DNA of 64,000 nucleotides from Candidatus Falkowbacteria bacterium (GTDB lineage Bacteria; Patescibacteriota; Patescibacteriia; Patescibacteriales; UBA12075), in contig DOSJ01000010.1 of the NCBI GenBank assembly GCA_003514005.1, positions 39,425 through 103,424 on the forward strand. Reading direction: 5' to 3'. Below the pieces are notes generated by a model. It had not been told where the DNA came from. It saw nothing but the letters and a program-made list of their open reading frames with translations, and made no database searches. Below are positions 2,099-61,611 of the stretch, one piece after another. The position numbers and the translations under genes are program-made. Position 1 is the first letter of the stretch, and the number at the start of each line of letters is the position of its first letter.

Positions 2099-3580
<1,482 letters not shown>

Positions 3581-3810
3581 CTAGGGAGAATGGCTCTGAG
3601 TTCAAAGTTTGAAAGTTAAAAGTTATATAGTTATTTCGATAATTCTATACTTTGAAACTTTCTACTTTATAACTCCTAGCCGTCGACACTTCTTTCCACT
3701 TTTTAAACAGTGTATGTTTAAAAAGATGAAGTGCTGGAACAGAATTTATTCTGGTTCAGGATTAAAAGTCTTTGCCTCTAAGTGAGTGGCAAAGCAAACC
3801 GGTTGTAAAA

Positions 3811-3832
3811 AAGTTGGCGCCTGCTAGCCCCA
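3811..3832 (+). other. 3' half of the 16S precursor processing stem
   Basis: AAGTTGGCGCCTGCTAGCCCCA. Its reverse complement matches 1932-1954. Confidence 0.6.
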
Positions 3833-3889
3833 AATCATTCCGCGAAAAAGCGGAAACGGTTTTATGGGGCCGTTCTTTGATTTAAAAGC

Positions 3890-3934
3890 AAAAAAGATTG
3901 GTCCTTACTTTGTACGAGCCAATCTTTTTTGTTT
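3890..3934 (+). terminator. Intrinsic terminator downstream of the 16S gene
   Basis: Stem AAAAAAGATTGG / CCAATCTTTTTT with a 17-nt loop, followed by TTTTGTTT. Confidence 0.5.
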
Positions 3935-3963
3935 GGACCACAAATCAACGAATCGATCACAAA

Positions 3964-3992
3964 TTCACAAATATTTATAATTATACTATAAT
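3964..3992 (+). promoter_or_regulatory. Sigma70-type promoter of the tRNA cluster (TTCACA-17 nt-TATAAT)
   Basis: TTCACA at 3964-3969, a 17-nt spacer, then a perfect TATAAT at 3987-3992, about 55 nt upstream of tRNA-Ile. Confidence 0.5.
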
Positions 3993-4048
3993 AATCCCAA
4001 AGCCTTGTACCACGTTGGGGCATGCCCCGCGTAGCCAAAGGCGAAGTG

Positions 4049-4122
<74 letters not shown>

Positions 4123-4128
4123 CAGAAT

Positions 4129-4197
4129 AATTTATGATTTTAGATTTAGGATTTATGAAATATTTATATCATATATCCTAAATCCAAAATCATAAAT
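4129..4197. repeat. AT-rich inverted repeat filling the tRNA-Ile / tRNA-fMet spacer
   Basis: Arms TTTATGATTTTAGATTTAGGAT and ATCCTAAATCCAAAATCATAAA face each other. Confidence 0.6.
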
Positions 4198-4202
4198 ATC
4201 AT

Positions 4203-4275
4203 AGCGGGGTAGAGCAGTTGGCAGCTCGCCAGGCCCATAACCTGGAGGCCGTCGGTTCGAATCCGACCCCCGCAA
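4203..4275 (+). tRNA. Initiator tRNA-Met (anticodon CAT)
   Basis: Aligns arm by arm with E. coli tRNA-fMet (GCGGGG-T-GAGC...GCTC...CATAA...GTCGGTTCGAATCCGAC-CCCCGCAA). Position 1:72 is an unpaired A:A. No encoded CCA. Confidence 0.8.
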
Positions 4276-4281
4276 CAAATT

Positions 4282-4356
4282 CAATTAAAAATTAAGAATT
4301 AAAAATTAAGAATTAATTGCTCGAATTATTAATTCTTAATTTTTAATTCTTAATTG
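4282..4356. repeat. AT-rich inverted repeat filling the tRNA-fMet / tRNA-Phe spacer
   Basis: Arms built from AATTAAAAATTAAGAATT words and their complement, around a central GCTCGAATTATT. Confidence 0.6.
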
Positions 4357-4368
4357 ATAATTGACGGC

Positions 4369-4440
4369 GCCTCGGTAGCTCAGTGGTAGAGCATGCGACT
4401 GAAAATCGCAGTGTCGTCAGTTCAATTCTGACCCGGGGCA
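4369..4440 (+). tRNA. tRNA-Phe (anticodon GAA)
   Basis: Acceptor GCCTCGG/CCGGGGC, D arm GCTCAGTGGTAGAGC, anticodon stem-loop TGCGA-CTGAAAA-TCGCA, T arm GTCAGTTCAATTCTGAC. Confidence 0.9.
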
Positions 4441-4520
4441 CAAGGAGTTTTCGATTGACGATTTTCGATTTACGAATGTTGAAATATCAATAAATCGGAA
4501 ATCGGAAATCGTAAATTACC

Positions 4521-4591
4521 CGGGGTGTCGTATACCGGTAGTACGCATGGTTTGGGACCATGTTGACTGGGTTCAATTCCCAGCACCCCGA
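4521..4591 (+). tRNA. tRNA-Pro (anticodon TGG)
   Basis: Acceptor CGGGGTG/CACCCCG, anticodon stem-loop CATGG-TTTGGGA-CCATG, T arm CTGGGTTCAATTCCCAG. Confidence 0.85.
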
Positions 4592-4599
4592 CAGACAAT

Positions 4600-4730
4600 A
4601 ATTTTCAATTTTAAATTTTAAATTTTTAAACAATTTTAAATGATTTAATTTTCAATGCTTTAAATAAAAAAAATTAATCATTAAAAATTTTCTCATTCAT
4701 TAAAAATTTAAAATTAAAAATTAAAAATTC
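4600..4730. repeat. AT-rich inverted repeat in the tRNA-Pro / tRNA-Gly spacer
   Basis: AATTTTCAATTTTAAATTTTAAATTTTTAA at the left is roughly complementary to TTAAAAATTTAAAATTAAAAATTAAAAATT at the right. Confidence 0.45.
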
Positions 4731-4736
4731 TCCTCT

Positions 4737-4809
4737 GCGGGTATAGTATAGTGGCTTTTTATGCTAGCCTTCCAAGCTGGAGAGACGGGTTCGATTCCCG
4801 TTACCCGCT
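4737..4809 (+). tRNA. tRNA-Gly (anticodon TCC)
   Basis: Acceptor GCGGGTA/TACCCGC, anticodon stem-loop CTAGC-CTTCCAA-GCTGG, T arm ACGGGTTCGATTCCCGT. Confidence 0.85.
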
Positions 4810-5033: not shown

Positions 5034-7016
5034 ATGAATGTAACCGAACTTGCCAGAACATTAAAAGTAACTCCAAACGAGTTGCGGCAGATGATGCCGG
5101 ATCTCGGTTTTGATATTGGCCAAAAGGCAATCAAAATCAATGGGAGCGTAGCCAACAAAATTATTAAAGCCTGGCCATCGCTCAAAAGAAAGCTAGAACA
5201 GAAAAAACAGGAAGAGGAAGCAAAAAATCGTTTACTAAAACAATCTTTACCTGAGGGAGAGAAAAAAACCATTCATGTACCAAATTTTATCAGTGTGCGC
5301 GAATTCGCCAATTTGTCAGAACTGCCTTTAAGCATCATTTTATCCGAATTAATGAAAAACGGCATATTCTCATCTTTGAATGAAAAGATCGATTTTGATA
5401 CGGCTTGGCTCGTCGGCTCTGAACTGGGTTTGGAAATAAAGCGCCAAAAAGAAGAAGCTGACACCAAAGAAGAGGAAGAAGGTAACAAATTAATCCAAGC
5501 CTTGGAAAAAGAAGACACAAAAACTTTAATTGCTCGTCCGCCGGTAATCGTTGTCATGGGGCATGTTGACCATGGCAAAACCAAGCTTTTGGACGCGATC
5601 CGCCAAACCCACGTTGTCGAGGGTGAAGCCGGGGGCATAACACAGCATATCGGCGCCTACCAGGCAAAACGCCAAGGCCAAATCATCACCTTTATCGATA
5701 CTCCGGGACATGAGGCTTTTACTGCTATGCGTAGCCGTGGCGCCCGCATCGCTGATATCGCAATATTGGTTGTCGCGGCTGATGACGGCGTAAAACCGCA
5801 GACCGTTGAGGCTTTCCGCATTATCGAGGCAGCAAAGATCCCGTACGTTGTTGCGATTAACAAAATCGACAAGCCGGACGCGAATATCGACAAAGTGAAA
5901 CAAGAGCTTTCCAATATTTTGAAAATCACTCCGGAAGACTGGGGCGGAAAAACAATCTGCGCCCCGATTTCGGCTTTGAAAAATATCGGCATCGACGACC
6001 TTCTTGATCTTGTGCTACTCTCAGCCAAAACCGAAGCGGAAAATATTATCGCGAACCCAGACGCATCCGCAATCGGTACGATTATTGAATCGCACATCGA
6101 CAAAGGCGCCGGTCCGGTAGCGACTATTCTGGTCCAAAACGGAACCTTGCGCGTCGGCGACAACCTTATTTTAAATAATTATAATATCGGTAAAGTAAAA
6201 AGCCTAAGCGATTATCGCGGACGCAAAATCCAATCCGCTGGACCGGCAACCCCGACCCAGATTTTGGGCCTTAAAAACGCTCCCCAAGTCGGCGATATGC
6301 TGGAAGTCGGAACCGGCGAAAGATCAAAGCTAAAAAAGATCAAAGGCATAGCAAACGCGAGCGGGACACAATCGGCCAATTCAGGCGATGACGATGAAAA
6401 AATCAAAAAACTCAATCTTATAATCAAAAGCGATGTACTCGGCTCCGCGGAAGCGATTGAAGAATCATTAATCAAGATCAACACAAAAAGCGTACACGCA
6501 AAAATAATCTACAAAGGTCTTGGAAACATTTCAGACAGCGACATCAGACGCGCGGAAACCTGCAACGCCCAAATAATCAGCTTTAACGTCAAAACTCCGC
6601 CCAATATCCAAGAGCAGGCAAGAGAAAAAAACGTAGCCATAAAATCATATTCCGTTATTTACGATATCATAAACGATGTCCGCAAAGAAATGGAAGCAAT
6701 CCTTGAGCCGACCATAACGCGCGTTGAGCTGGGCAGGCTGAAAGTCTTGGCTATATTCCGCACCGACAAAGACAAGCAGATAATCGGCGGAAAAGTGATT
6801 GAAGGCATTATTGAAAACGGCGCGAAAATCGAGATTTTCCGCAACAAAGAATATATTGATTCTGGCGAACTTACCCGCTTGCAATCCGGCAAGCAAGACG
6901 TCAAAACCTGCGAGACCGACGAAGAATGCGGCATGGAATACAAAGGCCGTCCCGTTATCCTTGTTGGTGATATCCTGAATTTCTCTAAGGAAGAGAAAAC
7001 GATTAACAAGCTATAG
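5034..7016 (+). CDS. infB: Translation initiation factor IF-2
   Basis: 660 aa. GTPase motifs GHVDHGKT, DTPGH and NKID; IF-2 N-terminal and C-terminal domain pattern; followed by rbfA. Confidence 0.95.
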   Translation: MNVTELARTLKVTPNELRQMMPDLGFDIGQKAIKINGSVANKIIKAWPSLKRKLEQKKQEEEAKNRLLKQSLPEGEKKTIHVPNFISVREFANLSELPLSIILSELMKNGIFSSLNEKIDFDTAWLVGSELGLEIKRQKEEADTKEEEEGNKLIQALEKEDTKTLIARPPVIVVMGHVDHGKTKLLDAIRQTHVVEGEAGGITQHIGAYQAKRQGQIITFIDTPGHEAFTAMRSRGARIADIAILVVAADDGVKPQTVEAFRIIEAAKIPYVVAINKIDKPDANIDKVKQELSNILKITPEDWGGKTICAPISALKNIGIDDLLDLVLLSAKTEAENIIANPDASAIGTIIESHIDKGAGPVATILVQNGTLRVGDNLILNNYNIGKVKSLSDYRGRKIQSAGPATPTQILGLKNAPQVGDMLEVGTGERSKLKKIKGIANASGTQSANSGDDDEKIKKLNLIIKSDVLGSAEAIEESLIKINTKSVHAKIIYKGLGNISDSDIRRAETCNAQIISFNVKTPPNIQEQAREKNVAIKSYSVIYDIINDVRKEMEAILEPTITRVELGRLKVLAIFRTDKDKQIIGGKVIEGIIENGAKIEIFRNKEYIDSGELTRLQSGKQDVKTCETDEECGMEYKGRPVILVGDILNFSKEEKTINKL

Positions 7017-7046: not shown

Positions 7047-7183
7047 TGTCATTCCCGCGAAGGCGGGAATCTCGGTAATAAAGTAAGTAAACAAGAAGTA
7101 TAAAAAATGTTTTTATAAAAAATTTTACAGAAAAATTATTTTGTTATTTTAACACCAAGATTCCCGCCTTCGCGGGAATGACA
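7047..7183. mobile_element. MITE-like element, copy 1 (TGTCATTCCCGCGAAGGCGGGAATC terminal inverted repeats)
   Basis: Left end TGTCATTCCCGCGAAGGCGGGAATCTCGG, right end CCAAGATTCCCGCCTTCGCGGGAATGACA. 137 bp, lying between infB and rbfA. Confidence 0.75.
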
Positions 7184-7222: not shown

Positions 7223-7570
7223 ATGTCAGAACGTATCCTCCAAATCAACGAACTCTTACGCCAGGAAATTGCCGGGCTGATTTCGCGCGAAATATTTTTG
7301 GAAGATGGCTTAATTACCGTAACCCGCGTAATCTGTTCGCCAAACCTGCACAACGCCAAAGCATTCATATCCGTATTGCCGGCTAACCACGCGGGTAGCG
7401 CACTAAGTTTGCTGAGAAGTAACAATTCATTATTCAATAAAGAACTGCGAAAAAAAATAAAAATGAAATTTATACCGAAAATTTTTTGGGCAATCGACGA
7501 ACAGGAACGCTATGTCATGGAAATCGACAAAGTTTTCGATGAAATAAACAATAATGATTCTCTTGATTAA
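7223..7570 (+). CDS. rbfA: Ribosome-binding factor A
   Basis: 115 aa, RbfA-like sequence, in the conserved position after infB. Confidence 0.8.
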   Translation: MSERILQINELLRQEIAGLISREIFLEDGLITVTRVICSPNLHNAKAFISVLPANHAGSALSLLRSNNSLFNKELRKKIKMKFIPKIFWAIDEQERYVMEIDKVFDEINNNDSLD

Positions 7571-9244: not shown

Positions 9245-9353
9245 TTTAGGGCATAGGTACTTAGGTACTTAGGGGCTATAAAAAACGTCTTGATTTTTTA
9301 TCAAGACGTTTTTTATTATTCCCAAGTACCTAAGTACCTATGCCCTAATTACC
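9241..9353. repeat. Palindromic element (same arms as 8526-8604) enclosing a bidirectional terminator, right of clpP
   Basis: Arms TAGGGCATAGGTACTTAGGTACTTAGGGG and CCCAAGTACCTAAGTACCTATGCCCTAATTACC. The inner hairpin is AAAAAACGTCTTGAT/ATCAAGACGTTTTTT. The right arm supplies the last codons and stop of the 9338-11560 gene. Confidence 0.7.
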
Positions 9354-11560
9354 TTTTGTGAAATCTCTTCCAAAACAACCCCAGCCCCTTTCTCCCACGA
9401 CCTCTCCGAAAGTAACGCTCGCCCCTTACCAACATTCAATTCCACCTCCTCCGCATGTCTGACTGCAAACTTAAGCTGTCTGGACAAATCCAAATAATCA
9501 TCCGGCTTAAAATACAAAACCGCGTCTTGCCCGATTTCACGCATTACTTCCGTGTCGCTGATAATCGCCGGCACACCCGCGTCCATTGCTTCAAGCAAGG
9601 GCAAAGACGAACCCTCGCGCGCGCTTGGATGCACAAAAATTCCGGCCTCGCCAAACAATTTCCATTTTTCATCATCACTAATATACCCAGGCATAATAAT
9701 TTTTTCACTTAGTTTTATATCAACAACGAGATGTTTTATTTCTTCCGCTCCGTATCCATCACGCCCGGCCAAAACCAATTTCCAATCAGGATAAGAATAA
9801 GAAAATTCATTAAACGCCTCCACTAATATATCAACAGATTTTTTCTTTTCGATTCTTCCAATATATATAATACTTTTATTTTTTAAATATTGATTATTAA
9901 GTATTGAATATTGATTATTTCTAGAGTATCCCATCGGCACGCAAACAATCTTCTCCCCAGCCAACCCATAATGCTTCACAATCTCTTTCTTGGAAAACTC
10001 CGAAACCGTAAAAATCTTTTCGGCTCTTTTAATATTTAATTTCGCGGCCGTGTCTTGCATTATCCTTTCACTAAACGAATAACACTCCGGGTTTGATTTA
10101 AAAATCACATCATGAATAACAGCAAAACTTTTCTGCGGCGCGTTTTTTGGAATATAGTAAGATGGCGTAAAAAAATAATCAACCGGAGAATTTTTTAGCT
10201 CCTTGTTCAGCTTGATACTGGTCCAGCCTCGACCATAAGGGATAATTTTTTGAATAGCAGGTGAAAGCGAGCGAATCGGACGCGGAGTATAAATTCGAAC
10301 GCGCAGATTTTTTTCTTGTGCTTTTAAAACAAGCGCGCGGATCATATTCATGGCATAAATCTCAACTCCTGTCCGAATGTTTTTTCCCGGAAAACGCGGG
10401 TCTTCCCAGCGCGAAGCATCAATTCCGATTATCTTGCGGCTTGGATTATTATCCGCGATTATTTCTCTCATCTTATCAAAAAAACATTGCTCTTGATATT
10501 TTTGCGCGTGCGCTATACATTTTTCTTTCTTGCTCAAGCACCATTCAACAGTCATTTTTTTTATTCCGGCAATTACATCTTCTTTATTCGGATTTGCCGG
10601 AATCAATATTCCCGTCTCCCCTTCAATCGTCGACTCAATCAACCCTCCTTCTTTTACTCCCAAATAAGGCTTACCGGCGGCATTGCTTTCCAGATGCGTC
10701 ATACCAGCATCTTCATCCAAAGGAATATAAATAGTTGCTTGTGCGCGACCGACAAGCAGAGAAAGTTTCTCATCGCTAACCCACCCCAATACTTTAATAT
10801 TTTCACAACCCCCTACTATCTCTTTTACTTGGTTAAACCTTGGTCCACCCGAAGCAATAATTAATTTTTTATCAGGCATTTCTTTGAATGCCTCAGCAAT
10901 AAGTTCAACGCGCTTTGCTTCATCAAGTCTTCCATAGGACAAAAAATAATCACCGGTTTCAATGTATTGGAATTTATCAATCGCGATCGGTGGCCAAACA
11001 ACATAGTTGGCATCGGTTTTGACATGATCCCGTATCCTTTGGCGGATATTTTTTGAGTTGGCAATATTTATATCAAAACGGCAAATCGCCTCAAGATACA
11101 AAAATTTCCAAAATCGCGTAAACAATGCATAGGGCAAGCGTAAATAAAAAGGGTATCCTGCTTTGCTAATCGTGTACATATCAAATATCCGGCGTGGCGT
11201 CGTGTGGGTATAGACCATTTTTAAAGCCTTGAGTTGCGCATAAAAGCCTACCGCTTCGGTCGCGGCCTGCGATGATGCGATTAAAACGTCATATTGTTTT
11301 AACAAACTCCGATTTTTAAAAAACAACCAGCGCAACCAAAAAAACCGCAATCCGCGAGTTGTTACGATATTCTCCGTCAAGCATTTAAGCCTACTCCCAA
11401 GTTTTTCTTGATACTCCGGAAAAGTATGCGCGCTCGCATAAGCGGTAATAAAATCGGCGCCCAAATCAAGCGCCAACATCATCACGGTTCTTTCACCGCC
11501 GCCACAAAACCCAAGATGGTCATGTACGATGGCTATTTTTAAATTGTTTATTTTATTCAT
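9338..11560 (-). CDS. Two-domain glycosyltransferase (tandem GT4-like modules)
   Basis: 740 aa. Two separate GT-B/GT4 E-x7-E regions (EDAGMTHLESNAAGKP and REGSSLPLLEAMDAGVP). Confidence 0.7.
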   Translation of the reverse strand: MNKINNLKIAIVHDHLGFCGGGERTVMMLALDLGADFITAYASAHTFPEYQEKLGSRLKCLTENIVTTRGLRFFWLRWLFFKNRSLLKQYDVLIASSQAATEAVGFYAQLKALKMVYTHTTPRRIFDMYTISKAGYPFYLRLPYALFTRFWKFLYLEAICRFDINIANSKNIRQRIRDHVKTDANYVVWPPIAIDKFQYIETGDYFLSYGRLDEAKRVELIAEAFKEMPDKKLIIASGGPRFNQVKEIVGGCENIKVLGWVSDEKLSLLVGRAQATIYIPLDEDAGMTHLESNAAGKPYLGVKEGGLIESTIEGETGILIPANPNKEDVIAGIKKMTVEWCLSKKEKCIAHAQKYQEQCFFDKMREIIADNNPSRKIIGIDASRWEDPRFPGKNIRTGVEIYAMNMIRALVLKAQEKNLRVRIYTPRPIRSLSPAIQKIIPYGRGWTSIKLNKELKNSPVDYFFTPSYYIPKNAPQKSFAVIHDVIFKSNPECYSFSERIMQDTAAKLNIKRAEKIFTVSEFSKKEIVKHYGLAGEKIVCVPMGYSRNNQYSILNNQYLKNKSIIYIGRIEKKKSVDILVEAFNEFSYSYPDWKLVLAGRDGYGAEEIKHLVVDIKLSEKIIMPGYISDDEKWKLFGEAGIFVHPSAREGSSLPLLEAMDAGVPAIISDTEVMREIGQDAVLYFKPDDYLDLSRQLKFAVRHAEEVELNVGKGRALLSERSWEKGAGVVLEEISQKVIRA

Positions 11561-11591
11561 TTTTTATACTATCTATATATTCCCTATACTT

Positions 11592-11729
11592 TGTCATTCC
11601 CGCGAAAGCGGGAATCTTGGTTTTAAAACAACGAGATACTTCTTTAGTAAAATTGATATAAAAACACCTTATAAATTTATTTGTTTATTTATTTTTTTTA
11701 CCGAGATTCCCGCCTACGCGGGAATGACA
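11592..11729. mobile_element. MITE-like element, copy 2
   Basis: TGTCATTCCCGCGAAAGCGGGAATCTTGG ... CCGAGATTCCCGCCTACGCGGGAATGACA, 138 bp. Track ORF 11529-11741 is a spurious translation of it. Confidence 0.75.
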
Positions 11730-11773
11730 AGATATTTTTAAATAGTTCAATTAAACTTGATGCATTCGTGTTC

Positions 11774-12616
11774 TTATAATCTTTTCTTAAAAATCTCCAA
11801 AGTATTCCAAAAAAGCATAGCAATTGTCATCGGTCCAACGCCACCTGGTACGGGAGTGATAAACGCAACCTTGTCTTCCACATCATCAAAATCAACATCG
11901 CCCAGTACTTTCCCTTTTTCTTTTGTTATGCCAATATCAATCACAACCGCGTCTTTTTTTACCATTTCTTTTTTTATAAAATGCGGACGACCAACAGCTG
12001 ATATCAAAATATCGGCTTTACTGGTTTTACTTTTCAAATTTTTATCATCCGCTTTCATAAGCTCGGTTTTTGCGCCTCGACAATCAAGTACATGTGCCAA
12101 ACTTTTACCAAAAACATCCGAATTCGCAATCAAACAAACTCGTTTATCTTTCAAATCGATTTTAATTTCATTCAGCATTATTAAAACCGCTTTTAAAACC
12201 GGAGGCAAAACTTCTTCATGATTACAGCTGGCTAATAATTTTTTCAAATTTTCCGGATGAAACAGATCAACGTCTTTTTTCGGATCAATCGCTTTGATAA
12301 TCTTATCAGTATCAAAACTATCAGGCAATGGCAATTGCACTAGAATTGCATCAATCAACTCATCATTATTCAAACATTCAATCATCTGGATTATTTCCGA
12401 TTCAGGGGTAGTATCGGTACAGCGATAAATATGCGTATCAATGCCAACCTTCAATGCCTCTTTTTCTTTTAGCGCAACATAAAGCCGAGAATCTTCGCGC
12501 TCCCCTATCAATATTATCGCCAAATTCGGACGCTTGCCTTGAAACGTCAAAATCTCCGCAACAATAGTGTCTTTAATTTTCTCGGCAATTAGTTTACCAT
12601 TTATTAACTCACTCAT
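11774..12616 (-). CDS. folD: Bifunctional methylenetetrahydrofolate dehydrogenase/cyclohydrolase
   Basis: 280 aa, FolD-like throughout (GKLIAEKI, VQLPLP, PGGVGPMT). Confidence 0.9.
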   Translation of the reverse strand: MSELINGKLIAEKIKDTIVAEILTFQGKRPNLAIILIGEREDSRLYVALKEKEALKVGIDTHIYRCTDTTPESEIIQMIECLNNDELIDAILVQLPLPDSFDTDKIIKAIDPKKDVDLFHPENLKKLLASCNHEEVLPPVLKAVLIMLNEIKIDLKDKRVCLIANSDVFGKSLAHVLDCRGAKTELMKADDKNLKSKTSKADILISAVGRPHFIKKEMVKKDAVVIDIGITKEKGKVLGDVDFDDVEDKVAFITPVPGGVGPMTIAMLFWNTLEIFKKRL

Positions 12617-12654
12617 TATTTCAAATATTATAAATATGGTTTTTCAATATACTT

Positions 12655-12842
12655 TGTAGCTTAAGCCGAAAATAAATAATTGATTGTTATTAAATTACTG
12701 CTTGAAGCGGATCATATTACCTACTCGAATGTTTATATGTGTATCTAACTTATATCTAATCCTCAACTTCTGCGCCTTTTCTGAGCTGAGCTTAATTTAA
12801 TAAAAATCAATTATTTATTTTCGGCTGATACGAACTTGAAAT
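12655..12842 (+). repeat. 188-bp palindromic element, copy 1 of 3
   Basis: Near-identical to 51555-51742 and 57661-57848. Terminal inverted repeats of about 34 bp (GCCGAAAATAAATAATTGAT..TTATTAAATTA) flank the conserved core CTGCTTGAAGCGGATCATATTACCTACTCGAATGTTTAT. Confidence 0.8.
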
Positions 12843-12878
12843 TCCAATAAAATAAGTCATAAAAAAAATAAAATATTA

Positions 12879-14504: not shown

Positions 14505-16160
14505 TTATTTTAATTTCTTTTCCATATAAGTTTCATGCAATCGATAGCCTAATTTTCGATAATAACCGCGCACCCCTACCCCTGATATTATTTTTAATAT
14601 ATCATAATTTTCATTTTTTGCAATCTCCTCCGCCTCCCCCAACAATATCTTCCCCAACCCCGCATGCTGAACCTTTTTCTCGCCCCCAACCGAAACCAGC
14701 TCGCCATAAACATGCAGCTCACGAACAATCGCCAACCCCTCATCAACCAATCGCAACCGACAAAATCCCAATAGTTTATCTTCCTTTGAAACTGCTTGAA
14801 TAAAATACTCCTTACCGCCTGAAGCATTATAATTAATAATATTAAATCGAAAATCGAAAATCGAAAATCGAAAATCACCAACTTCCCTACACCGAATACA
14901 CCGACAAACAACCCCCTCATCTTGCATCACCTGCCGCAAATTTGTTATCTTATTCCCAGCAACAATCGATTCACCTGGAATATCCCGAATCAAACGAATA
15001 ATACGAACATATTCCGGCGTTATTTTTTTACACTTAATAATCAACTCACGCAATTGTTTATCTGTATATGGTTTATACTTCCCTTGTTTCCACCAATGAT
15101 AAAGCAAAGAGCCCTTGGTGACAACACAAGGATAAAACTTTATCTGATCCGGCTGAAAACGCTCATCGGTAAAAAGTTGCCGATACATCTTGAAATCACG
15201 CGCCGGCGTTGACCCTGGCAATCCAGGCATTATATGATAAGTAACCTTAAATCCATAATTTTTTAATAAAGCAGTCGCATCCGCGATTTCCTTTACCCCA
15301 TGCCCGCGCTTATTCAGCTTCAAAATCTTATCATCAAGGTGCTGCACCCCAAGCTCCACCCGCGTACACCCAAACGTACGCATCTGTAACAACTCTTCAT
15401 CACAAATATAATCCGGCCGCGTCTCAAGAGTCAAACCAATAATCTGATATTTAGTATTTTCATTCTTCTTCTGTTCTTTTATTAATAAATTTTTTAATTC
15501 TCCTCTTGTCATTCCCGCGAAGGCGGGAATCTTGGTTATAGGCGAAATGGCTTTTTTTTCACCAAGATTCCCGCCTTCGCGGGAATGACAAAATTGGTTT
15601 GCGGCCGCAAAAAGATTCAACACATACCAATACTTATACTTCTCCGGCAAATAAGACCACGTCCCCCCGATAACAATCAACTCAATCTTCGTCGGCTCAT
15701 GCCCATTATTAATCAAAGCCCGCAAACGATCTTGGACTTGAACAAACGGATTATAACCACAACGTATCGCCCGCATCACCGCTGGCTCATTCGAAAGATA
15801 GCTCTGCGGCACGTCTTTTTCAGTTGGGCAATACGCGCATTTTCCCGGGCAAGGATAAGGCTTGGTTAAAACCGCAACCGGCGCGATACCCGACATAGTC
15901 CGCACCGCACGCTTTCGCAAAAGTTTTTTTAATAAGGGGTTCAACCCCTGCGCCAGGGTTTGAACCCCTTTTATAATCTCCGCATTACTAAAAATATCCA
16001 ATCCATACTTCTTGGCTATTTTACGTTTTACAAGCATTAAATCTTTACTGTCAGCAATTTTAGCAGACAACAATTCTTTAATAGCTTCTTCAATTTTTTC
16101 ATTAATATCTTTCATAATACTTTCTAGCACTAGATTAACACTCAGAAAATCATTAGTCAA
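14505..16160 (-). CDS. Elp3-like radical SAM / GNAT acetyltransferase (tRNA U34 modification family)
   Basis: 551 aa. Elp3-type radical-SAM cysteine motif CPGKCAYCP followed by PQSYLSNEPAVMRA, and a C-terminal GNAT region QHAGLGKILLGEAEEIA. The start may instead be the ATG at 16115 (MKDINEK). Confidence 0.75.
   Translation of the reverse strand: MTNDFLSVNLVLESIMKDINEKIEEAIKELLSAKIADSKDLMLVKRKIAKKYGLDIFSNAEIIKGVQTLAQGLNPLLKKLLRKRAVRTMSGIAPVAVLTKPYPCPGKCAYCPTEKDVPQSYLSNEPAVMRAIRCGYNPFVQVQDRLRALINNGHEPTKIELIVIGGTWSYLPEKYKYWYVLNLFAAANQFCHSREGGNLGEKKAISPITKIPAFAGMTRGELKNLLIKEQKKNENTKYQIIGLTLETRPDYICDEELLQMRTFGCTRVELGVQHLDDKILKLNKRGHGVKEIADATALLKNYGFKVTYHIMPGLPGSTPARDFKMYRQLFTDERFQPDQIKFYPCVVTKGSLLYHWWKQGKYKPYTDKQLRELIIKCKKITPEYVRIIRLIRDIPGESIVAGNKITNLRQVMQDEGVVCRCIRCREVGDFRFSIFDFRFNIINYNASGGKEYFIQAVSKEDKLLGFCRLRLVDEGLAIVRELHVYGELVSVGGEKKVQHAGLGKILLGEAEEIAKNENYDILKIISGVGVRGYYRKLGYRLHETYMEKKLK
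14844..14876. repeat. 7-nt tandem array (AAATCGA x4.7) inside the Elp3-like CDS
   Basis: AAATCGA repeats at 14844, 14851, 14858 and 14865, plus a partial unit. It encodes DFRFSIFDFRF. The same array occurs at 23113-23143. Confidence 0.85.
15507..15590. mobile_element. MITE-like element, copy 3 (84 bp, in frame inside the Elp3-like CDS)
   Basis: TGTCATTCCCGCGAAGGCGGGAATCTTGG ... CCAAGATTCCCGCCTTCGCGGGAATGACA. It is 84 bp (28 codons) and is translated as ..CHSREGGNLGEKKAISPITKIPAFAGMTRG.. Confidence 0.8.
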
Positions 16161-23070: not shown

Positions 23071-23143
23071 CGAATGTCGAATGTCGAATGTCGAATGTCG
23101 ATTTAAAGTTTTAAATCGAAAATCGAAAATCGAAAATCGAAAA
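23071..23143. repeat. Two facing 7-nt tandem arrays (CGAATGT x4 and AAATCGA x4) filling the rpmI-rplT spacer
   Basis: CGAATGT units at 23071-23098 and AAATCGA units at 23113-23140. The two arrays are partly complementary and form an imperfect hairpin abutting the rplT start codon. Confidence 0.8.
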
Positions 23144-23341
23144 TTAATTATACGGCATTAATTTCTTAATGGTTTTTTTGATTGTTTTGTCAGTATCAAT
23201 ATCGCGGCGCTTATTGCGCTTGGTATTGCCAGTTTCACGAGCATTATAGTGATCCTGCCCGGCTTTTCTCTGCTTAATCTTATTATTTTTGGTAATAACA
23301 AATCTTTTTGCAGTAGCTTTATGAGTCTTTACTTTTGGCAT
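23144..23341 (-). CDS. rpmI: 50S ribosomal protein L35
   Basis: MPKVKTHKATAKRF... starts at the internal ATG at 23341. The 11-codon extension in the track is not L35-like. Confidence 0.9.
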   Translation of the reverse strand: MPKVKTHKATAKRFVITKNNKIKQRKAGQDHYNARETGNTKRNKRRDIDTDKTIKKTIKKLMPYN

Positions 23342-23406: not shown

Positions 23407-23964
23407 TTAATCTTTTTTATTTACCAGTATCATTATAAACCTTCCCCCTTGTTTTGTCAAGTCTTGTTCTCGCATAATATTCAATCCTTCATTTTTCTGC
23501 AATTCCGCCACAAATTCATTGATTATTTCGACGGCTTTTTCCGGATGCTGTTTTTCCCGCCCTTTTAAAACCAAATCGATTTTTACCTTATGTCCCTTGC
23601 TAAAAAACTTTAGCGCCTGATCCGCTCTTAGGGCCAAATCATTTTTACTAATGCGCACCGATAATCGGACGCCTTTTGTATCGATTTTTTTCTGGGCGAT
23701 TTTCTGTTTATGCGCCTTTTTTTCTCTTTCGTATTTTAATTGGCCATAATCAACAATCTTTACAACCGGCGGCTGTCCGGTCGGGTTAACCTCTACCAAA
23801 TCCAGCCCGATTTCTTCCGCCCGTCGCAACGCCTCGGCTATTGTTACAATACCAACGTTTTCACCAACTTCATCAATTAAATACACTTCCGGTACCCGAA
23901 TCTGCTGGTTTGTTCTAAATCTTTTTTCTATTTTAGGTTGCGCCTTGCGCCATGTTCTCCGCAT
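23407..23964 (-). CDS. infC: Translation initiation factor IF-3
   Basis: 185 aa, IF-3 N- and C-domain pattern (IRVPEVYLIDEVGE...), in the infC-rpmI-rplT operon order. Confidence 0.9.
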   Translation of the reverse strand: MRRTWRKAQPKIEKRFRTNQQIRVPEVYLIDEVGENVGIVTIAEALRRAEEIGLDLVEVNPTGQPPVVKIVDYGQLKYEREKKAHKQKIAQKKIDTKGVRLSVRISKNDLALRADQALKFFSKGHKVKIDLVLKGREKQHPEKAVEIINEFVAELQKNEGLNIMREQDLTKQGGRFIMILVNKKD

Positions 23965-24114
23965 CGATATTAATTATTGATATTAAATTAAAACAGCCTG
24001 TTTTTCAAAGACTATATTCTGTATAAGTTATACTAATACATTTGTTAAAAAAAATCAAGCAGAATAGTATTAAAATTATTAATAAAAATATACAGCGATA
24101 GTGTAGAAAGTCTT

Positions 24115-24306
24115 AAATTGAGACTTGAGAAAAGTTTTTTTTCTGTCATTCCCGCGCAGGCGGGAATCTTGGTTAAAAAATCACTTAACATTTTATAATA
24201 ACGTTGGCTAAAAAATCTTTAGCTCAAAAATCAGTTTTTCTTTTTTTTAAACCGAGATTCCCGCCTGCGCGGGAATGACAAGAGTTTTTTTCTCAAGTCT
24301 CAAATT
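24115..24306. mobile_element. MITE-like element, copy 4 (137-bp core 24144-24280 plus outer inverted repeat)
   Basis: The core has the TGTCATTCCCGCGCAGGCGGGAATC ends, and its internal sequence is nearly identical to copy 7 (52930-53065). The outer arms are AAATTGAGACTTGAGAAAA / TTTTCTCAAGTCTCAAATT. Confidence 0.75.
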
Positions 24307-24418
24307 GGTTATTACCGAAGTGAGGACTGTTTGAGCCGCTTCCAAAATAAATAATAAATAAAAAAGGCGAGTTCCCAGCCTACCGGCAGGCACGGCGCAA
24401 CGAGGTAATAACCAATTT
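24303..24418. repeat. Inverted repeat (15-bp arms AAATTGGTTATTACC) around an 86-nt relatively GC-rich centre
   Basis: AAATTGGTTATTACC ... GGTAATAACCAATTT. The centre contains GGCGAGTTCCCAGCCTACCGGCAGGCACGGCGCAACG. Confidence 0.5.
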
Positions 24419-24797
24419 AAACCTTTACGAAACGGACAAAAAAAGAATACATGGCTTTTTTCAAAATAAAAAGGAGCCCAACGGGGCCCCCTTCTTTTTT
24501 ATATAAAAAAATGAATTTATGGGGTCTATATGTTGAGCTCCATCCCTAAGAATTATTTGATACATTTATATGTAATATAAATTTTCTCAGGGCAAATGGA
24601 ACTACTTCCTAACTTTAGTAGTTAATATTCACCGATTGGTAGTAATCCCAAATAATTTTTTTTATATTATATTCAGAACTACTGTTTTTTTTGTTTTTGT
24701 TTTTGCTTTTTTGTAAAGGCCTGTCAGGACTGGCCGATAACCAGTGAATAATATGTTGTTAAATAACATCTACAATTAATATATCATATTTTTAGAC

Positions 24798-24822
24798 TTA
24801 AGTCAACGATATCCTAGACTTA
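24798..24822 (+). promoter_or_regulatory. 25-nt motif copy C0 (TTAAGTCAA-CGA-TATC-CTAGAC-TTA)
   Basis: Aligns with five other copies of the consensus WTAAGTCYA-N3-AAAC-STRGAC-TTA. This is the most degenerate copy. Confidence 0.45.
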
Positions 24823-24874
24823 AATTATTATCTAATATAAGACACGAAAATCTAATTAATAATAGTTATCAACA

Positions 24875-24899
24875 ATAAGTCCAGGTAAACGTGGACTTA
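24875..24899 (+). promoter_or_regulatory. 25-nt motif copy C1 (ATAAGTCCA-GGT-AAAC-GTGGAC-TTA)
   Basis: Perfect 8-nt inverted repeat TAAGTCCA/TGGACTTA with an 8-nt spacer. Confidence 0.6.
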
Positions 24900-24920
24900 A
24901 AGTATTATTTTCAATAATTT

Positions 24921-24950
24921 TTATCCACATTTCCACAGTTTTTATCCACA
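24921..24950 (+). promoter_or_regulatory. Two perfect DnaA boxes (TTATCCACA) plus one degenerate box in direct orientation
   Basis: TTATCCACA at 24921-24929 and 24942-24950, with ATTTCCACA at 24929-24937. Confidence 0.6.
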
Positions 24951-24966
24951 TCATAGTCATATGAAC

Positions 24967-24991
24967 TTAAGTCTAATAAAACGTAGACAAA
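24967..24991 (+). promoter_or_regulatory. 25-nt motif copy C2 (TTAAGTCTA-ATA-AAAC-GTAGAC-AAA)
   Basis: Aligns position for position with the other copies. Confidence 0.55.
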
Positions 24992-25018
24992 ACCCCGCCC
25001 TTCGCGAAGGGCGGGGTT
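24991..25018. terminator. GC-rich hairpin downstream of tRNA-Cys
   Basis: AACCCCGCCCTTCG / CGAAGGGCGGGGTT. On the minus strand it is followed by TTTTGTC. Confidence 0.6.
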
Positions 25019-25025
25019 ATATTTG

Positions 25026-25096
25026 AGGTCTGGAACGGATTTGAACCGATGATGGCAGTTTTGCAAACTGCTGCCTTACCACTTGGCTACCAGACC
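25026..25096 (-). tRNA. tRNA-Cys (anticodon GCA)
   Basis: The minus strand reads GGTCTGGTAGCCAAGTGGTAAGGCAGCAGTTTGCAAAACTGCCATCATCGGTTCAAATCCGTTCCAGACCT. The anticodon loop is TTGCAAA. Confidence 0.85.
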
Positions 25097-25775: not shown

Positions 25776-26231
25776 TCAACCTGGCGGCAATGAACCCCCC
25801 GTACCTCCTCCCGCATCTCCCTTACTATCTCCAAACGGCAAAGCCTTGAATACAAATGCGGTTATAGCATAGGCTGATACGATAATAACAAGTCCAATAA
25901 TCGCTTTTTTGATTGTTTCTTTAGCTGTCGTAACCTTTTGCTCTTCTCCTCCAGCCGTCATCCAAATAAAACCGGCATAAATCATTAATATTATAAAAAT
26001 AATAGCGAGTAATCCCAAAAACGCTTTAATTACTATTGAAATAATTTCACCAAGCTCGGCACCGTCGCTGTCGCCAATATTAAATCCTGAGCTTTTAGCA
26101 AATTTCCCCATCAAACTTTCTCCACCGACAACTTCATTCGGATCATTCAACGGTCCTGCCAGAGAAGTGCCTACAAAAAAACTAAAAGAGATAATAATAA
26201 TAGACAAACTTATCAAAATATATTTTCGCAT
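25776..26231 (-). CDS. VirB2/TrbC-like pilin-family small membrane protein, paralogue 8 (Gly-rich C-terminal tail)
   Basis: 151 aa. Signal peptide, then two TM helices around the conserved loop YAGFIWMTAGGEEQKVTTAKETIKKAIIGLVI. The tail is GDSKGDAGGGTGGSLPPG. Confidence 0.7.
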   Translation of the reverse strand: MRKYILISLSIIIISFSFFVGTSLAGPLNDPNEVVGGESLMGKFAKSSGFNIGDSDGAELGEIISIVIKAFLGLLAIIFIILMIYAGFIWMTAGGEEQKVTTAKETIKKAIIGLVIIVSAYAITAFVFKALPFGDSKGDAGGGTGGSLPPG

Positions 26232-26241
26232 CTTTTTAAAA

Positions 26242-26616: not shown

Positions 26617-26632
26617 TTTTTTATTTTTAGTT

Positions 26633-27079: not shown

Positions 27080-27080
27080 A

Positions 27081-27467: not shown

Positions 27468-27474
27468 AAAAATT

Positions 27475-38619: not shown

Positions 38620-38677
38620 ACTGCCATAAAACTACAATGAGACCTGAGAAATACTTTTTTAAAAAATATTTTTCACC

Positions 38678-38749
38678 TGTCATTCCCGCGAAGGCGGGAA
38701 TCCAGATTCGATTGATAAACCCTGGATTCCCGCCTTCGCGGGAATGACA
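38678..38749. mobile_element. MITE-like element, copy 5 (short, 72 bp)
   Basis: TGTCATTCCCGCGAAGGCGGGAATCCAG ... CTGGATTCCCGCCTTCGCGGGAATGACA. An outer inverted repeat TGAGACCTGAGAAA / TTTCTCAAGTTTCA flanks it. Track ORF 38576-38776 is spurious. Confidence 0.75.
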
Positions 38750-38810
38750 AAAAAAGGAGTTTTTCTCAAGTTTCAATTTATTATTTTATAATAGTTTTGT
38801 AAAAACCAAA

Positions 38811-47768: not shown

Positions 47769-47799
47769 TGTCATTCCCGCGTAGGCGGGAATCTTGGTT
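47769..47799. mobile_element. Solo terminal repeat of the MITE-like family (copy 6, half element)
   Basis: TGTCATTCCCGCGTAGGCGGGAATCTTGGTT has no partner end nearby. A fragment of the 188-bp element end (GACTTAGGCCAAAAAT) lies next to it at 47700-47716. Confidence 0.65.
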
Positions 47800-47893
47800 T
47801 AACAATAACAAAATATTTTATCCATAAAATTATCTCAAAAACTAAATATAACTTTATTAATTGTTCTTTGTCAGTTTACCGAACAAACCCGTT

Positions 47894-52929: not shown

Positions 52930-53065
52930 TGTCATTCCCGCGTAGGCGGGAATCTTGATTAAAAAATTACTTAATATTTTTTAATACTGTTGGCTAAAAA
53001 ATCTCTAACTTAAAAATTAGTTTTTCTTTTTTTAAACCGAGATTCCCGCCTACGCGGGAATGACA
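52930..53065. mobile_element. MITE-like element, copy 7
   Basis: TGTCATTCCCGCGTAGGCGGGAATCTTG ... CCGAGATTCCCGCCTACGCGGGAATGACA. Its internal sequence is about 85-90% identical by eye to copy 4. Confidence 0.75.
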
Positions 53066-61460: not shown

Positions 61461-61611
61461 TGTCATTCCCGACACTCCTTGCCCCCGGCAGGGAATAGAT
61501 ATTAAATGATCGGGAATCCAGGGATAATAGATTCAAATATCTTAACAAGTTAGCCTAATTTAAAACATTAAGTGCTTTTCCTACTGGATTCCCGCCTTCG
61601 CGGGAATGACA
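61461..61611. mobile_element. MITE-like element, copy 8 (degenerate left end)
   Basis: TGTCATTCCCGACACTCC... at the left and TGGATTCCCGCCTTCGCGGGAATGACA at the right. Confidence 0.6.

What the first reader, a model, noticed from the sequence alone, without database searches (positions are those of the whole stretch)
7047..7183. MITE-like family with ATTCCCGC-N4-GCGGGAAT-containing terminal inverted repeats: seven full copies and one solo end in 64 kb
Copies lie at 7047-7183, 11592-11729, 15507-15590, 24144-24280, 38678-38749, 52930-53065 and 61461-61611. There is also a solo end at 47769-47799.

All share TGTCATTCCCGCG-NNN-GCGGGAATC at one end and its complement at the other. Each terminal repeat is itself a small palindrome. 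Sizes fall into classes of 72, 84 and about 137 bp.

Copies 4 and 7 share nearly the same internal sequence, which points to recent transposition or gene conversion. Copies 4 and 5 have an additional outer inverted repeat (TTGAGACYTGAGAAA).

Elements sit between co-oriented genes of apparent operons (infB|rbfA), in divergent and convergent spacers, and inside one CDS. No transposase is present in the window. The ATTCCC-N8-GGGAAT core resembles the Neisseria dRS3 repeat pattern, which may be coincidental.
Basis: seen in the sequence. Interest (0 to 1): 0.55.

Follow-up and report, generated by a model that had tools for sequence, protein, structure and literature searches.

The report
Ssn-type hairpin repeat doublets, Falkowbacteria
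This candidate-phylum bacterium (Falkowbacteria) carries paired copies of almost the same 28-base DNA hairpin that the small single-strand nuclease Ssn cuts in Neisseria, and a matching nuclease gene lies elsewhere in its genome, so this is a new host for a system described in 2025, not a new kind of element.

Summary
ATTCCCGC-N4-GCGGGAAT occurs 14 times in the window against 0.01 expected.

The likeness to Neisseria dRS3 is not coincidental. All 14 hairpins match the published degenerate Ssn-related motif (SRM). They differ from the Neisseria NTS 28-mer at only 1-2 positions, and they keep the bases shown to matter for SsnA binding and cleavage.

The window comes from Candidatus Falkowbacteria GW2011_GWC2_38_22 (CPR, Rifle aquifer). 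It holds no transposase and no ssn gene. A 99-aa single-domain GIY-YIG (Ssn-type) gene lies on another contig binned to the same genome and is flanked by the same hairpin. The same hairpin flanks ssn genes in Ignavibacteria-type contigs and in another ssn-carrying contig.

Across 228 fetched loci, convergent hairpin pairs are either 68-179 bp doublets or 300-700 bp units, and 8 of the 10 longer units hold ssn. No RAYT (REP-associated tyrosine transposase) was seen.

Evidence for spread as units:
- a three-copy subfamily with 83-87% internal identity;
- an in-frame 84-bp copy in a variable loop of Elp3;
- an empty orthologous spacer in a relative.

There are no target-site duplications, so "MITE" is only an analogy. 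This is a new member of a known kind.

The parts
7047..7183 (.). 137-bp doublet between infB (5034-7016, +) and rbfA (7223-7570, +). SRM arms at 7047-7074 (+) and 7156-7183 (-).
   Evidence: Folds as one long hairpin: -42.2 kcal/mol, z = -11.6.
11592..11729 (.). 138-bp doublet between a GT4 glycosyltransferase gene (9338-11560, -) and folD (11774-12616, -). It is the only doublet whose two arms differ in loop sequence (GAAA versus GTAG).
15507..15590 (.). 84-bp doublet inserted in frame in the Elp3 gene. It encodes 28 residues (CHSREGGNLGEKKAISPITKIPAFAGMT) in a variable loop.
   Evidence: alignment A1, columns 199-232; only 2 of 6 frames are open. In one search, query residues 190-227 stay unaligned against 7 residues of PDB 5l7j.
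14505..16160 (-). Host CDS: Elp3-type radical SAM/GNAT tRNA-modification enzyme that carries the 84-bp copy.
   Evidence: Pfam hits Radical_SAM, Radical_SAM_C and GNAT. Homologues are 61-72% identical and lack the repeat-encoded peptide.
24144..24280 (.). 137-bp doublet between infC (23407-23964, -) and a tRNA gene (25026-25096, -). It belongs to the young subfamily with 52930 and L178.
24118..24303 (.). Outer perfect 15-nt inverted repeat TTGAGACTTGAGAAA (24118-24132 and 24289-24303) that encloses the 24144 doublet.
38678..38749 (.). 72-bp doublet of the CCAG type, whose arms are 1 mismatch from the Neisseria NTS. It lies between a 936-aa surface protein gene (35809-38619, +) and a histidine kinase gene (38811-40190, +).
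   Evidence: The orthologous spacer in relative L235 is about 60 bp and holds no hairpin.
38637..38776 (.). Outer inverted repeat (38637-38651 and 38762-38776; 2 and 1 mismatches) that encloses the 38678 doublet.
47769..47890 (.). Decayed doublet. The left SRM arm (47769-47796, +) is intact, the interior is 75% identical to the 11592 copy, and the right arm is degenerate. The hairpin's ATGACA supplies the apparent start codon of ORF 43017-47774.
   Evidence: (family D6). Another gene call starts this protein 35 residues later.
52930..53065 (.). 136-bp doublet between recA (51774-52823, -) and an HTH_25 gene (53191-53856, -). It is 124/137 identical to 24144. A one-sided trace of the outer repeat lies at 53073-53087.
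61461..61611 (.). 151-bp doublet between a methyltransferase gene (60802-61356, -) and trxB (61750-62712, -). The right arm (61584-61611, -) is canonical. The loop of the left arm is replaced by about 39 nt that form their own small hairpin.

Best explanation
**What it is.** The elements are inverted doublets of an Ssn-related motif (SRM/NTS-type) hairpin. The hairpin reads TGTCATTCCCGCG-NAN-GCGGGAATC and is the ssDNA recognition site of the small GIY-YIG nuclease Ssn.

**Where the partner is.** The genome (Candidatus Falkowbacteria GW2011_GWC2_38_22) encodes one Ssn-type gene on another contig. That gene is bracketed by the same hairpin in the same convergent arrangement. The 72-151 bp doublets are gene-less satellites of that hairpin-ssn-hairpin unit. 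They are comparable to REPINs or Neisseria NIMEs, and they multiply as whole units.

**Shown here.**
- The motif matches the published SRM search sequence.
- The determinant bases are conserved.
- The cognate gene carries the same flanks.
- Convergent hairpin pairs are either short doublets or longer units that mostly hold ssn.
- A young subfamily of doublets exists.
- A relative has empty orthologous sites.

**Inferred.**
- When the DNA is single-stranded (replication, uptake or repair), Ssn binds each small hairpin and nicks a few nucleotides 5' of it. In a doublet that places the nick just outside the element on each strand.
- This nicking, or recombination started by it, both spreads the doublets and keeps the arms uniform.
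- As in Neisseria, the sites may restrict incoming ssDNA.
For: **Motif identity.**
- All 14 arms match the published SRM regular expression. They differ from the NTS 28-mer at 1-2 positions (motif definitions).
- The C immediately 3' of the palindrome (critical for SsnA binding) and the GTC immediately 5' (critical for cleavage) are invariant in all 14 arms.

**The partner gene.**
- P0121 is a 99-aa single-domain GIY-YIG protein (PF01541, E = 5e-16).
- It lies between three tandem '+' hairpins and one '-' hairpin.

**Same genome.**
- The window's RecA is KKQ54270.1 and the Ssn is KKQ54008.1. In the TPA assemblies the pattern repeats: HBI97055 (Elp3) and HBI97063 (IF-2) against HBI97112 (Ssn), and HBT27489 and HBT27481 against HBT27192.
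- Both contigs occur in JGI sample 3300001041.

**Link between hairpin and ssn elsewhere.**
- The identical hairpin flanks ssn homologues in two Ignavibacteria MAG loci (L127, L151), a matching metagenome contig (L158) and another ssn-carrying contig (L223).
- In L227 and L224 the ssn flanks are variant hairpins with compensatory stem changes.
- Among 228 loci, 65 convergent pairs fall into 55 short doublets (distinct ones 68-179 bp) and 10 of 300-700 bp; 8 of the 10 contain an Ssn ORF.

**Constraint and spread.**
- Outside the loop there are no substitutions in any of the 14 arms. Most interiors are at the shuffle baseline of 0.63 identity.
- Five of six doublets have identical loops in both arms.
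- One subfamily (24144, 52930, L178) is 83-87% identical internally.
- Doublet length is lineage-specific: 135-138 bp in low-GC contigs with T4SS-pilin homologues (CPR-type), about 105 bp and about 71-75 bp elsewhere.
- The Elp3 loop and the spacer between the surface-protein and histidine-kinase genes are empty in relative L235.
Against: - No biochemistry exists for this Ssn.
- The same-genome claim rests on accession blocks and binning, not on a closed genome.
- Nobody has shown that any Ssn mobilises DNA. Chenal et al. show cleavage and an effect on transformation, not transposition.
- Bertels and Rainey attribute doublets of the same core sequence in Neisseria to a RAYT transposase. Only about 120 kb of this genome was screened for one.
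- Doublets and the ssn unit share nothing beyond the terminal 38 nt or less, so descent by internal deletion is not shown.
- As ssDNA a doublet prefers one long stem (-31 to -46 kcal/mol). That stem would mask the small hairpins that Ssn is reported to need.
- No insertion polymorphism was seen among the assemblies of this population that were returned.
Confidence: 0.7

Rival explanations
1. The elements are REPINs mobilised by a RAYT (REP-associated tyrosine, HUH/Y1, transposase). This is what Bertels and Rainey propose for doublets of the same core sequence in Neisseria. Under this reading, Ssn merely shares the recognition site.
For: The architecture is exactly that of a REPIN: two inverted hairpins, a short spacer, and master lengths specific to each lineage. 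The Neisseria REPIN master sequence ATTCCCGCGCAGGCGGGAATC is identical to the core of the 24144 arms.
Against: No Y1_Tnp family appears in the Pfam results for window ORFs. None appears in the precomputed Pfam lists for about 57 kb of further sequence from this genome. Of ten hairpin-bracketed units of 300-700 bp in 228 loci, eight hold Ssn and none holds a RAYT. The whole genome was not searched.
Confidence: 0.12
2. The elements are classical MITEs, that is, deletion derivatives of a DDE-transposase insertion sequence, moved in trans by that transposase.
For: The elements are short, have terminal inverted repeats, occur in many copies, and sit in a window with no transposase.
Against: No target-site duplications flank any copy. 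The flanks instead extend the inverted symmetry (YT|TGTCA...TGACA|AR). No IS with these ends turned up in any fetched locus. Each end is itself a hairpin conserved across phyla, which is not a property of DDE IS ends.
Confidence: 0.03
3. The elements are primarily host-function structures: transcription terminators or attenuators, mRNA-stabilising stem-loops, or protein-binding sites between operon genes. Under this reading they are kept for that role and do not spread as selfish DNA.
For: All seven intergenic copies lie between co-oriented genes, 30-180 nt from the neighbouring gene ends. Transcripts would contain very stable stems. Single arms score as weak terminator-like sites.
Against: Co-oriented placement is not enriched: 29 of 36 spacers of at least 100 bp are co-oriented, so seven of seven has P of about 0.22. 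One copy sits inside a CDS. The same 28-mer recurs in unrelated phyla and brackets ssn genes. Orthologous spacers in a relative lack it. Secondary use by the host is not excluded.
Confidence: 0.08

Closest known systems
NTS / Ssn-related motif (SRM) repeats with the Ssn GIY-YIG ssDNA nuclease (Chenal et al. 2025, Nat Commun, PMC11893778)
   Same: The hairpin core is the same, as are the oriented flanks GTC...C. The window arms match the published SRM search motif. A single-domain GIY-YIG gene of about 94-99 aa is bracketed by the motif. The system occurs in symbiont-like, reduced genomes.
   Different: The host is a CPR (Falkowbacteria) bacterium. The first base is T rather than C, and the 3' flank is mostly CTYG rather than CYRG, so only 3 of 14 arms pass the strict NTS criterion of at most one mismatch. 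Here the repeats are almost all organised as tight inverted doublets of fixed length. Activity of this Ssn has not been tested.
Neisseria dRS3 repeats and NIMEs (Neisseria intergenic mosaic elements; dRS3-flanked 50-150 bp RS segments)
   Same: All 14 arms have the exact ATTCCC-N8-GGGAAT core, and short variable segments are bracketed by inverted copies (from my own knowledge of Parkhill et al. 2000; core definition).
   Different: The phylum differs and the interior sequences are unrelated. No link to Nf-phage integration or to Piv/IS110-type recombinases was seen here.
REPIN-RAYT systems (Bertels and Rainey)
   Same: Both are inverted doublets of a REP-like hairpin that behave as replicating sequence populations, with a single-copy partner gene itself flanked by the repeat.
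   Different: The partner found here is a GIY-YIG nuclease, not an HUH/Y1 transposase. No RAYT was seen in the sequence available.
Rickettsia palindromic elements (RPE; Ogata et al. 2000, Science), cited from my own knowledge
   Same: Both are palindromic repeats that can sit in frame inside protein-coding genes, adding a tolerated surface peptide in a reduced, host-dependent bacterium.
   Different: RPE sequences were not compared here. Only one of eight copies in this window is intragenic.
IS200/IS605 family (ssDNA hairpin-recognising HUH transposases)
   Same: Both have ends that are ssDNA hairpins rather than simple inverted repeats. Both lack target-site duplications. Cleavage occurs at a short distance from the hairpin on one strand.
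   Different: The catalytic protein family differs (GIY-YIG against HUH). Transposition has never been shown for Ssn units.

Membership tests
SRM/NTS-Ssn system (Chenal et al. 2025) | The repeat matches the degenerate SRM search sequence HGTCWYN(0-2)YYVSBRHN(0-5)WNVSBRGN(0-2)RNCYNB. | tested here: met
   All 14 arms match, 7 on each strand.
SRM/NTS-Ssn system (Chenal et al. 2025) | Strict Neisseria NTS: CGTCATTCCCGCGMAVGCGGGAATCYRG with at most one mismatch. | tested here: not met
   Only 3 of 14 arms (38678, 38722, 61584) have 1 mismatch; seven more match with 2 and four exceed 2. The repeats are therefore SRM, not strict NTS.
SRM/NTS-Ssn system (Chenal et al. 2025) | A semi-palindrome that folds into a hairpin as ssDNA, with oriented non-palindromic flanks. 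The C after the palindrome matters for binding and the 3 nt before it matter for cleavage. | tested here: met
   The arm has an 8-bp stem and a 4-nt loop (-8.9 kcal/mol, z = -4.3). GTC upstream and C downstream are invariant in all 14 arms.
SRM/NTS-Ssn system (Chenal et al. 2025) | The genome encodes a short (150 aa or less) single-domain GIY-YIG protein whose gene is flanked on both sides by the motif. | tested here: met
   P0121 is 99 aa and hits only PF01541. Hairpins lie at L229 9822, 9881 and 9940 (+) and at 10316 (-), around the gene at 10001-10300. Assignment to the same genome rests on accession blocks and a shared sample.
SRM/NTS-Ssn system (Chenal et al. 2025) | The protein belongs to CDD family cd10448, or hits N. 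meningitidis SsnA by BLASTP at E < 1e-10. | not testable with these tools
   Neither CDD nor the Nm SsnA sequence was available. P0121 keeps two tyrosines 11 residues apart (Y10, Y21) and a glutamate (E69), like the Y6/Y17/E64 residues mutated. It has 1070 homologues at E <= 1e-10 that sources name GIY-YIG nuclease family proteins.
SRM/NTS-Ssn system (Chenal et al. 2025) | The protein binds and cleaves the motif as ssDNA only, on one strand only. | not testable with these tools
   This needs purified protein and oligonucleotides.
Neisseria dRS3 | The 20-bp repeat ATTCCC-N8-GGGAAT is present in many copies. | tested here: met
   There are 14 exact matches against 0.29 expected at up to one mismatch. 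The host is not Neisseria, so this is a shared sequence, not membership of the Neisseria repeat population.
REPIN-RAYT | Two REP hairpins lie in inverted orientation, separated by a short spacer, and form a sequence population. | tested here: met
   There are six clean doublets in the window. Length classes and one young subfamily are visible.
REPIN-RAYT | A cognate RAYT (HUH/Y1 transposase, PF01797) gene is flanked by the same REP. | tested here: inconclusive
   None was found among window ORFs, in about 57 kb of further sequence from the same genome, or among hairpin-bracketed units in 228 loci. The rest of the roughly 1 Mb genome was not searched.
MITE (derived from a DDE insertion sequence) | Target-site duplications flank the terminal inverted repeats. 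| tested here: not met
   No direct repeats are present at any copy. The flanks continue the inverted symmetry instead.
MITE (derived from a DDE insertion sequence) | A parent autonomous IS has the same terminal inverted repeats. | tested here: not met
   The gene repeatedly found between such ends is ssn; two other bracketed units hold small ORFs with no Pfam match.
Rickettsia palindromic elements (RPE) | Sequence similarity to the RPE-1 to RPE-8 consensus sequences. | not tested
   No RPE sequences were at hand. Only the behaviour (in-frame insertion inside a gene) is shared.

The most novel reading that the evidence does not exclude
The hairpin-ssn-hairpin unit is an autonomous mobile element of a kind not yet recognised: a GIY-YIG, ssDNA-hairpin-guided 'insertion sequence'. 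The doublets are its non-autonomous derivatives. A roughly 1-Mb CPR genome that has ssn and recently duplicated doublets but no RAYT would then show that Ssn, not a tyrosine transposase, disperses dRS3/NTS-type repeats. That would settle the conflict between the two published accounts of the same Neisseria repeat.
Probability: 0.25. Interest if true: 0.75.

Novelty: new member of a known kind. Interest (0 to 1): 0.4.

Why it matters
**Wider range.** The finding adds a host-dependent CPR (Falkowbacteria) bacterium with a small genome to the hosts of the Ssn/SRM repeat-nuclease system. A 25-nt recognition hairpin is nearly identical in Patescibacteria, Ignavibacteria and Neisseriaceae. That implies strong protein-imposed constraint, horizontal spread of the nuclease-site pair, or both.

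**A test case.** The same repeat has two unconnected explanations in the literature: RAYT-driven REPINs, and Ssn targets that limit transformation. No paper in the searched library links GIY-YIG with REPINs. A minimal genome in which only one of the two partner genes may exist is a natural test between them.

**Practical use.** Many CPR bacteria are thought to depend on DNA uptake (background knowledge, not tested here), so an ssDNA nuclease with sites sprinkled through housekeeping operons could shape their recombination. The doublets also explain spurious ORF starts and repeat-encoded peptides (HSREGGN..., IPAFAGMT) in annotations of CPR genomes.

Tried and rejected
1. **An ssn gene or transposase in the window.** Pfam scans of ORFs of 50 aa or more found none (the pilin array 26242-29260 and the membrane-protein gene 29417-30982 were not scanned). 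tblastn with an Ssn query found nothing in the window or in the 17.5 kb beyond its ends.
2. **Doublets as internal-deletion derivatives of the ssn unit.** Similarity stops at the terminal 25-38 nt, so this is not shown.
3. **Target-site duplications.** None are present.
4. **Bias towards operon-internal spacers.** Seven of seven copies are in co-oriented spacers, but 29 of 36 large spacers are co-oriented (P about 0.22). There is no evidence of bias.
5. **Empty sites within the population.** Every assembly returned is 100% identical across the repeat sites it covers. The only variation is 3 versus 1 tandem 59-bp hairpin units beside ssn in one assembly. That could be an assembly collapse.
6. 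**Finding the source genome in the genome collection.** It is not there. The scan instead returned the same 30-mer in Ignavibacteria, Devosia, Eikenella, Kingella, Moraxellaceae, Vibrio ezurae, Rickettsiales and Coxiellaceae.
7. **Rfam.** No family covers the elements at gathering threshold.
8. **Terminator role.** Only weak consensus matches were found for single arms.
9. **Supplementary tables of Chenal et al.** I wanted to see whether CPR genomes were already listed, but the tables are not held.
10. **Three other ssn homologues (P0122, P0144, P0187) as candidates for this genome.** They belong to other assemblies. The right gene was found through the metagenome pattern scan.
11. **The outer repeat TTGAGACTTGAGAAA as a pre-existing terminator that the doublet entered.** The related species lacks both the doublet and the outer repeat at the orthologous spacer. 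Spacing between the outer repeat and the hairpin varies from 8 to 26 nt. The question is unresolved.

Full report
**Observation.** The motif ATTCCCGC-N4-GCGGGAAT occurs 14 times in the 64-kb window, against 0.01 expected from shuffles. The looser dRS3 definition ATTCCC-N8-GGGAAT returns the same 14 sites. The other two are single arms, at 47769 and at 61584-61611. Every arm reads TGTCATTCCCGCG-NAN-GCGGGAATC. As DNA it folds into an 8-bp stem with a 4-nt loop (-8.9 kcal/mol, z = -4.3). Whole doublets fold into one long stem (-31 to -46 kcal/mol, z = -7.6 to -13.3).

- The 151-bp copy at 61461 has a canonical right arm. In its left arm the loop is replaced by about 39 nt that form their own small hairpin.
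- The 'solo end' is a decayed doublet. Its interior is 75% identical to the 11592 copy and its right arm is degenerate.
- All seven intergenic copies lie between co-oriented genes: infB|rbfA, GT4|folD, infC|tRNA, surface protein|histidine kinase, 1585-aa protein|methyltransferase, recA|HTH_25 and methyltransferase|trxB. I found none in divergent or convergent spacers. The placement is not a bias, because 29 of 36 large spacers are co-oriented.

**Organism.** Gene content and names given by the sources place the window in Candidatus Falkowbacteria (Patescibacteria/CPR) from the Rifle aquifer.
- The window holds many T4SS-pilin paralogues and a bacterial Elp3. A 16S rRNA gene is followed by five tRNA genes, with no 23S gene in the window.
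- The window's RecA is KKQ54270.1 of 'Candidatus Falkowbacteria bacterium GW2011_GWC2_38_22'.
- The same sequence occurs at 100% identity in the NCBI, ENA and JGI assemblies that were returned.

**What the repeat is.**
- Chenal et al. (2025, PMC11893778) showed that about half of Neisseria dRS3 copies are a longer oriented 28-mer, the NTS (CGTCATTCCCGCGMAVGCGGGAATCYRG).
- The 94-aa GIY-YIG nuclease SsnA binds and cuts the NTS as ssDNA only. Related 'Ssn-related motifs' (SRM) flank ssn homologues across phyla.
- All 14 window arms match their degenerate SRM search sequence. They differ from the NTS at one or two positions.
- The C just 3' of the palindrome is most critical for binding, and the three bases just 5' matter for cleavage. 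Both are invariant here.

**Partner gene.** The window and the 17.5 kb beyond its ends contain no ssn gene and no transposase. A metagenome scan with the arm plus its inner flank returned a contig on which a 99-aa ORF lies between the same hairpins.
- The protein (P0121) has only a GIY-YIG domain.
- Its accessions fall in the same blocks as the window's proteins in three assemblies: KKQ54008 against KKQ54270; HBI97112 against HBI97055 and HBI97063; HBT27192 against HBT27489 and HBT27481.
- Its contig and the window's contig both occur in JGI sample 3300001041.
- The layout is three tandem '+' hairpins with a 59-bp period, then ssn, then one '-' hairpin. One assembly has a single unit instead of three.
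- The ssn ORF is 23% G+C. It sits between genes of 47% G+C.

**Generality.** The exact hairpin also brackets ssn homologues in two Ignavibacteria MAG loci and a matching metagenome contig (L127, L151, L158), and in another ssn-carrying contig (L223). In two other ssn loci (L227, L224) the flanks are variant hairpins with compensatory stem changes, for example ATTCCTGC-GGAG-GCAGGAAT. The 30-mer with its inner flank occurs in Ignavibacteria, Devosia, Eikenella, Kingella, Moraxellaceae, Vibrio ezurae, Rickettsiales and Coxiellaceae. Over all 228 loci fetched, convergent hairpin pairs fall into 55 short doublets (distinct ones 68-179 bp) and 10 of 300-700 bp. Eight of the ten contain an Ssn ORF, and none contains a RAYT. 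Doublet length is lineage-specific: 135-138 bp in low-GC contigs with T4SS-pilin homologues (CPR-type), about 105 bp in a 50-60% G+C group, and about 71-75 bp elsewhere.

**Evidence that doublets behave as replicating, constrained units.**
1. Outside the loop, the arms carry no substitutions in any of the 14 copies. Most interiors sit at the shuffle baseline (0.63 ± 0.03 identity).
2. In five of six doublets the two arms share the same loop variant.
3. Copies 24144 and 52930, and a third copy on another contig (L178), are 83-87% identical internally.
4. The 84-bp copy sits in frame in Elp3 and encodes 28 residues in a loop that varies in length among homologues. The Dehalococcoides Elp3 structure has 7 residues where the window protein has 38. 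Only two of the element's six frames are open.
5. A related species (Elp3 about 71% identical) has no SRM hairpin in 21.6 kb. Its Elp3 loop is empty, and its spacer between the surface-protein and histidine-kinase genes is about 60 bp against 191 bp here.

There are no target-site duplications. The flanks extend the inverted symmetry instead: T at position -1 in 12 of 15 arms (P about 1e-4) and a pyrimidine at -2 in all 15.

**Mechanism.** The identity of the repeat and of its partner gene is shown. The mode of action is inferred from the Neisseria work. Ssn would bind each small hairpin when the DNA is single-stranded and nick a few nucleotides 5' of it. In a doublet one cuttable site faces outward on each strand, so the nicks would fall just outside the element on both strands. 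That geometry suits excision, copying or recombination. Whether such nicking spreads the doublets is unknown.

Two points count against a simple reading.
- As ssDNA a doublet strongly prefers one long stem, which resembles the dsDNA that SsnA does not cut.
- Bertels and Rainey treat doublets of the same core sequence in Neisseria as REPINs moved by a RAYT transposase. I saw no RAYT, but I screened only about 120 kb of this genome.

**Comparison and verdict.** This is a member of the SRM/Ssn repeat-nuclease kind in a new host lineage. Its doublet organisation resembles REPINs and Neisseria NIMEs, and one copy behaves like an in-frame Rickettsia palindromic element. Only 3 of 14 arms pass the one-mismatch NTS criterion, so it is not strict Neisseria NTS. 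It also fails the MITE definition because it lacks target-site duplications. Novelty: new member of a known kind. Interest is moderate, for three reasons: the near-identity of the hairpin across phyla, the intragenic copy, and the chance that a minimal genome could show which enzyme spreads these repeats.

Noticed in passing
window 12627-12855, 51527-51755 and 57633-57861; a partial copy at 47664-47718; a further copy at L154 19324-19546: A second, unrelated MITE-like family. The units are about 165-229 bp and 86-94% identical, with near-perfect terminal inverted repeats of about 34 nt (GGCCGAAAATAAATAATTGATTTTTATTAAATTA). As RNA a unit folds to -61.6 kcal/mol (z = -7.3). Rfam gives only sub-threshold matches to plant microRNA precursors, which is what a long hairpin produces. 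The partial copy lies next to the decayed SRM doublet.
   Followed up: partly
window 24118-24132/24289-24303, 38637-38651/38762-38776 and 53073-53087; also L195 246-260 and L178 5661-5675: The outer inverted repeat TTGAGACTTGAGAAA encloses or adjoins five SRM doublets of different subfamilies, at a variable distance of 8-26 nt. No unoccupied copy of this palindrome was found in the sequence available. It is also absent from the orthologous spacer of a relative. Whether it is a preferred target or part of a longer composite element is unresolved.
   Followed up: partly
L229 9817-9971 against L233: The hairpin beside ssn is a 59-bp tandem array of three units in most assemblies and a single unit in GCA_003508365.1, a 118-bp difference. 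This could be true copy-number variation or an assembly collapse.
   Followed up: partly
window 14832-14875 and 23101-23158: A (TCGAAAA)n heptamer microsatellite of about four units occurs twice. One copy lies inside Elp3, where it encodes a second variable loop (FDFRFSIFDFRF). The other lies in the spacer between the L35 and L20 genes.
   Followed up: no
window 2099-4809: A 16S rRNA gene is followed by five tRNA genes, with no 23S or 5S gene in the window. The NCBI assembly DNEU01000002.1 lacks 191 bp (window 4100-4290) within the tRNA array, either through assembly collapse or as a strain difference.
   Followed up: no
window 25776-29260 and 53959-54411: An array of about seven paralogous small T4SS-pilin-type membrane protein genes (Pfam PF18895 on the two that were scanned; repeat families D1 and D3 link the rest), plus one more near recA. 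The ssn unit elsewhere in the genome also lies between large genes that contain pilin domains.
   Followed up: no
window 23965-25025: A stretch of about 1 kb between infC and a tRNA gene has no ORF of 50 aa or more and no Rfam match. It contains the 24144 doublet.
   Followed up: no
window 34747-34866; copy at L154 16807-16925: A 120-bp sequence is repeated at 97% identity between the window and a site about 5 kb beyond its start. It overlaps a doubtful 65-aa ORF.
   Followed up: no
window 47772-47774 and 11529-11741, 38576-38776, 61572-61736: The repeat creates spurious ORF starts and ORFs. The ATGACA at each arm end can serve as a start codon; it extends the 1585-aa ORF by 35 residues compared with another gene call. 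Small ORFs across doublets encode HSRE(S/G)GN... and IPA(F/Y)AGMT peptides.
   Followed up: partly
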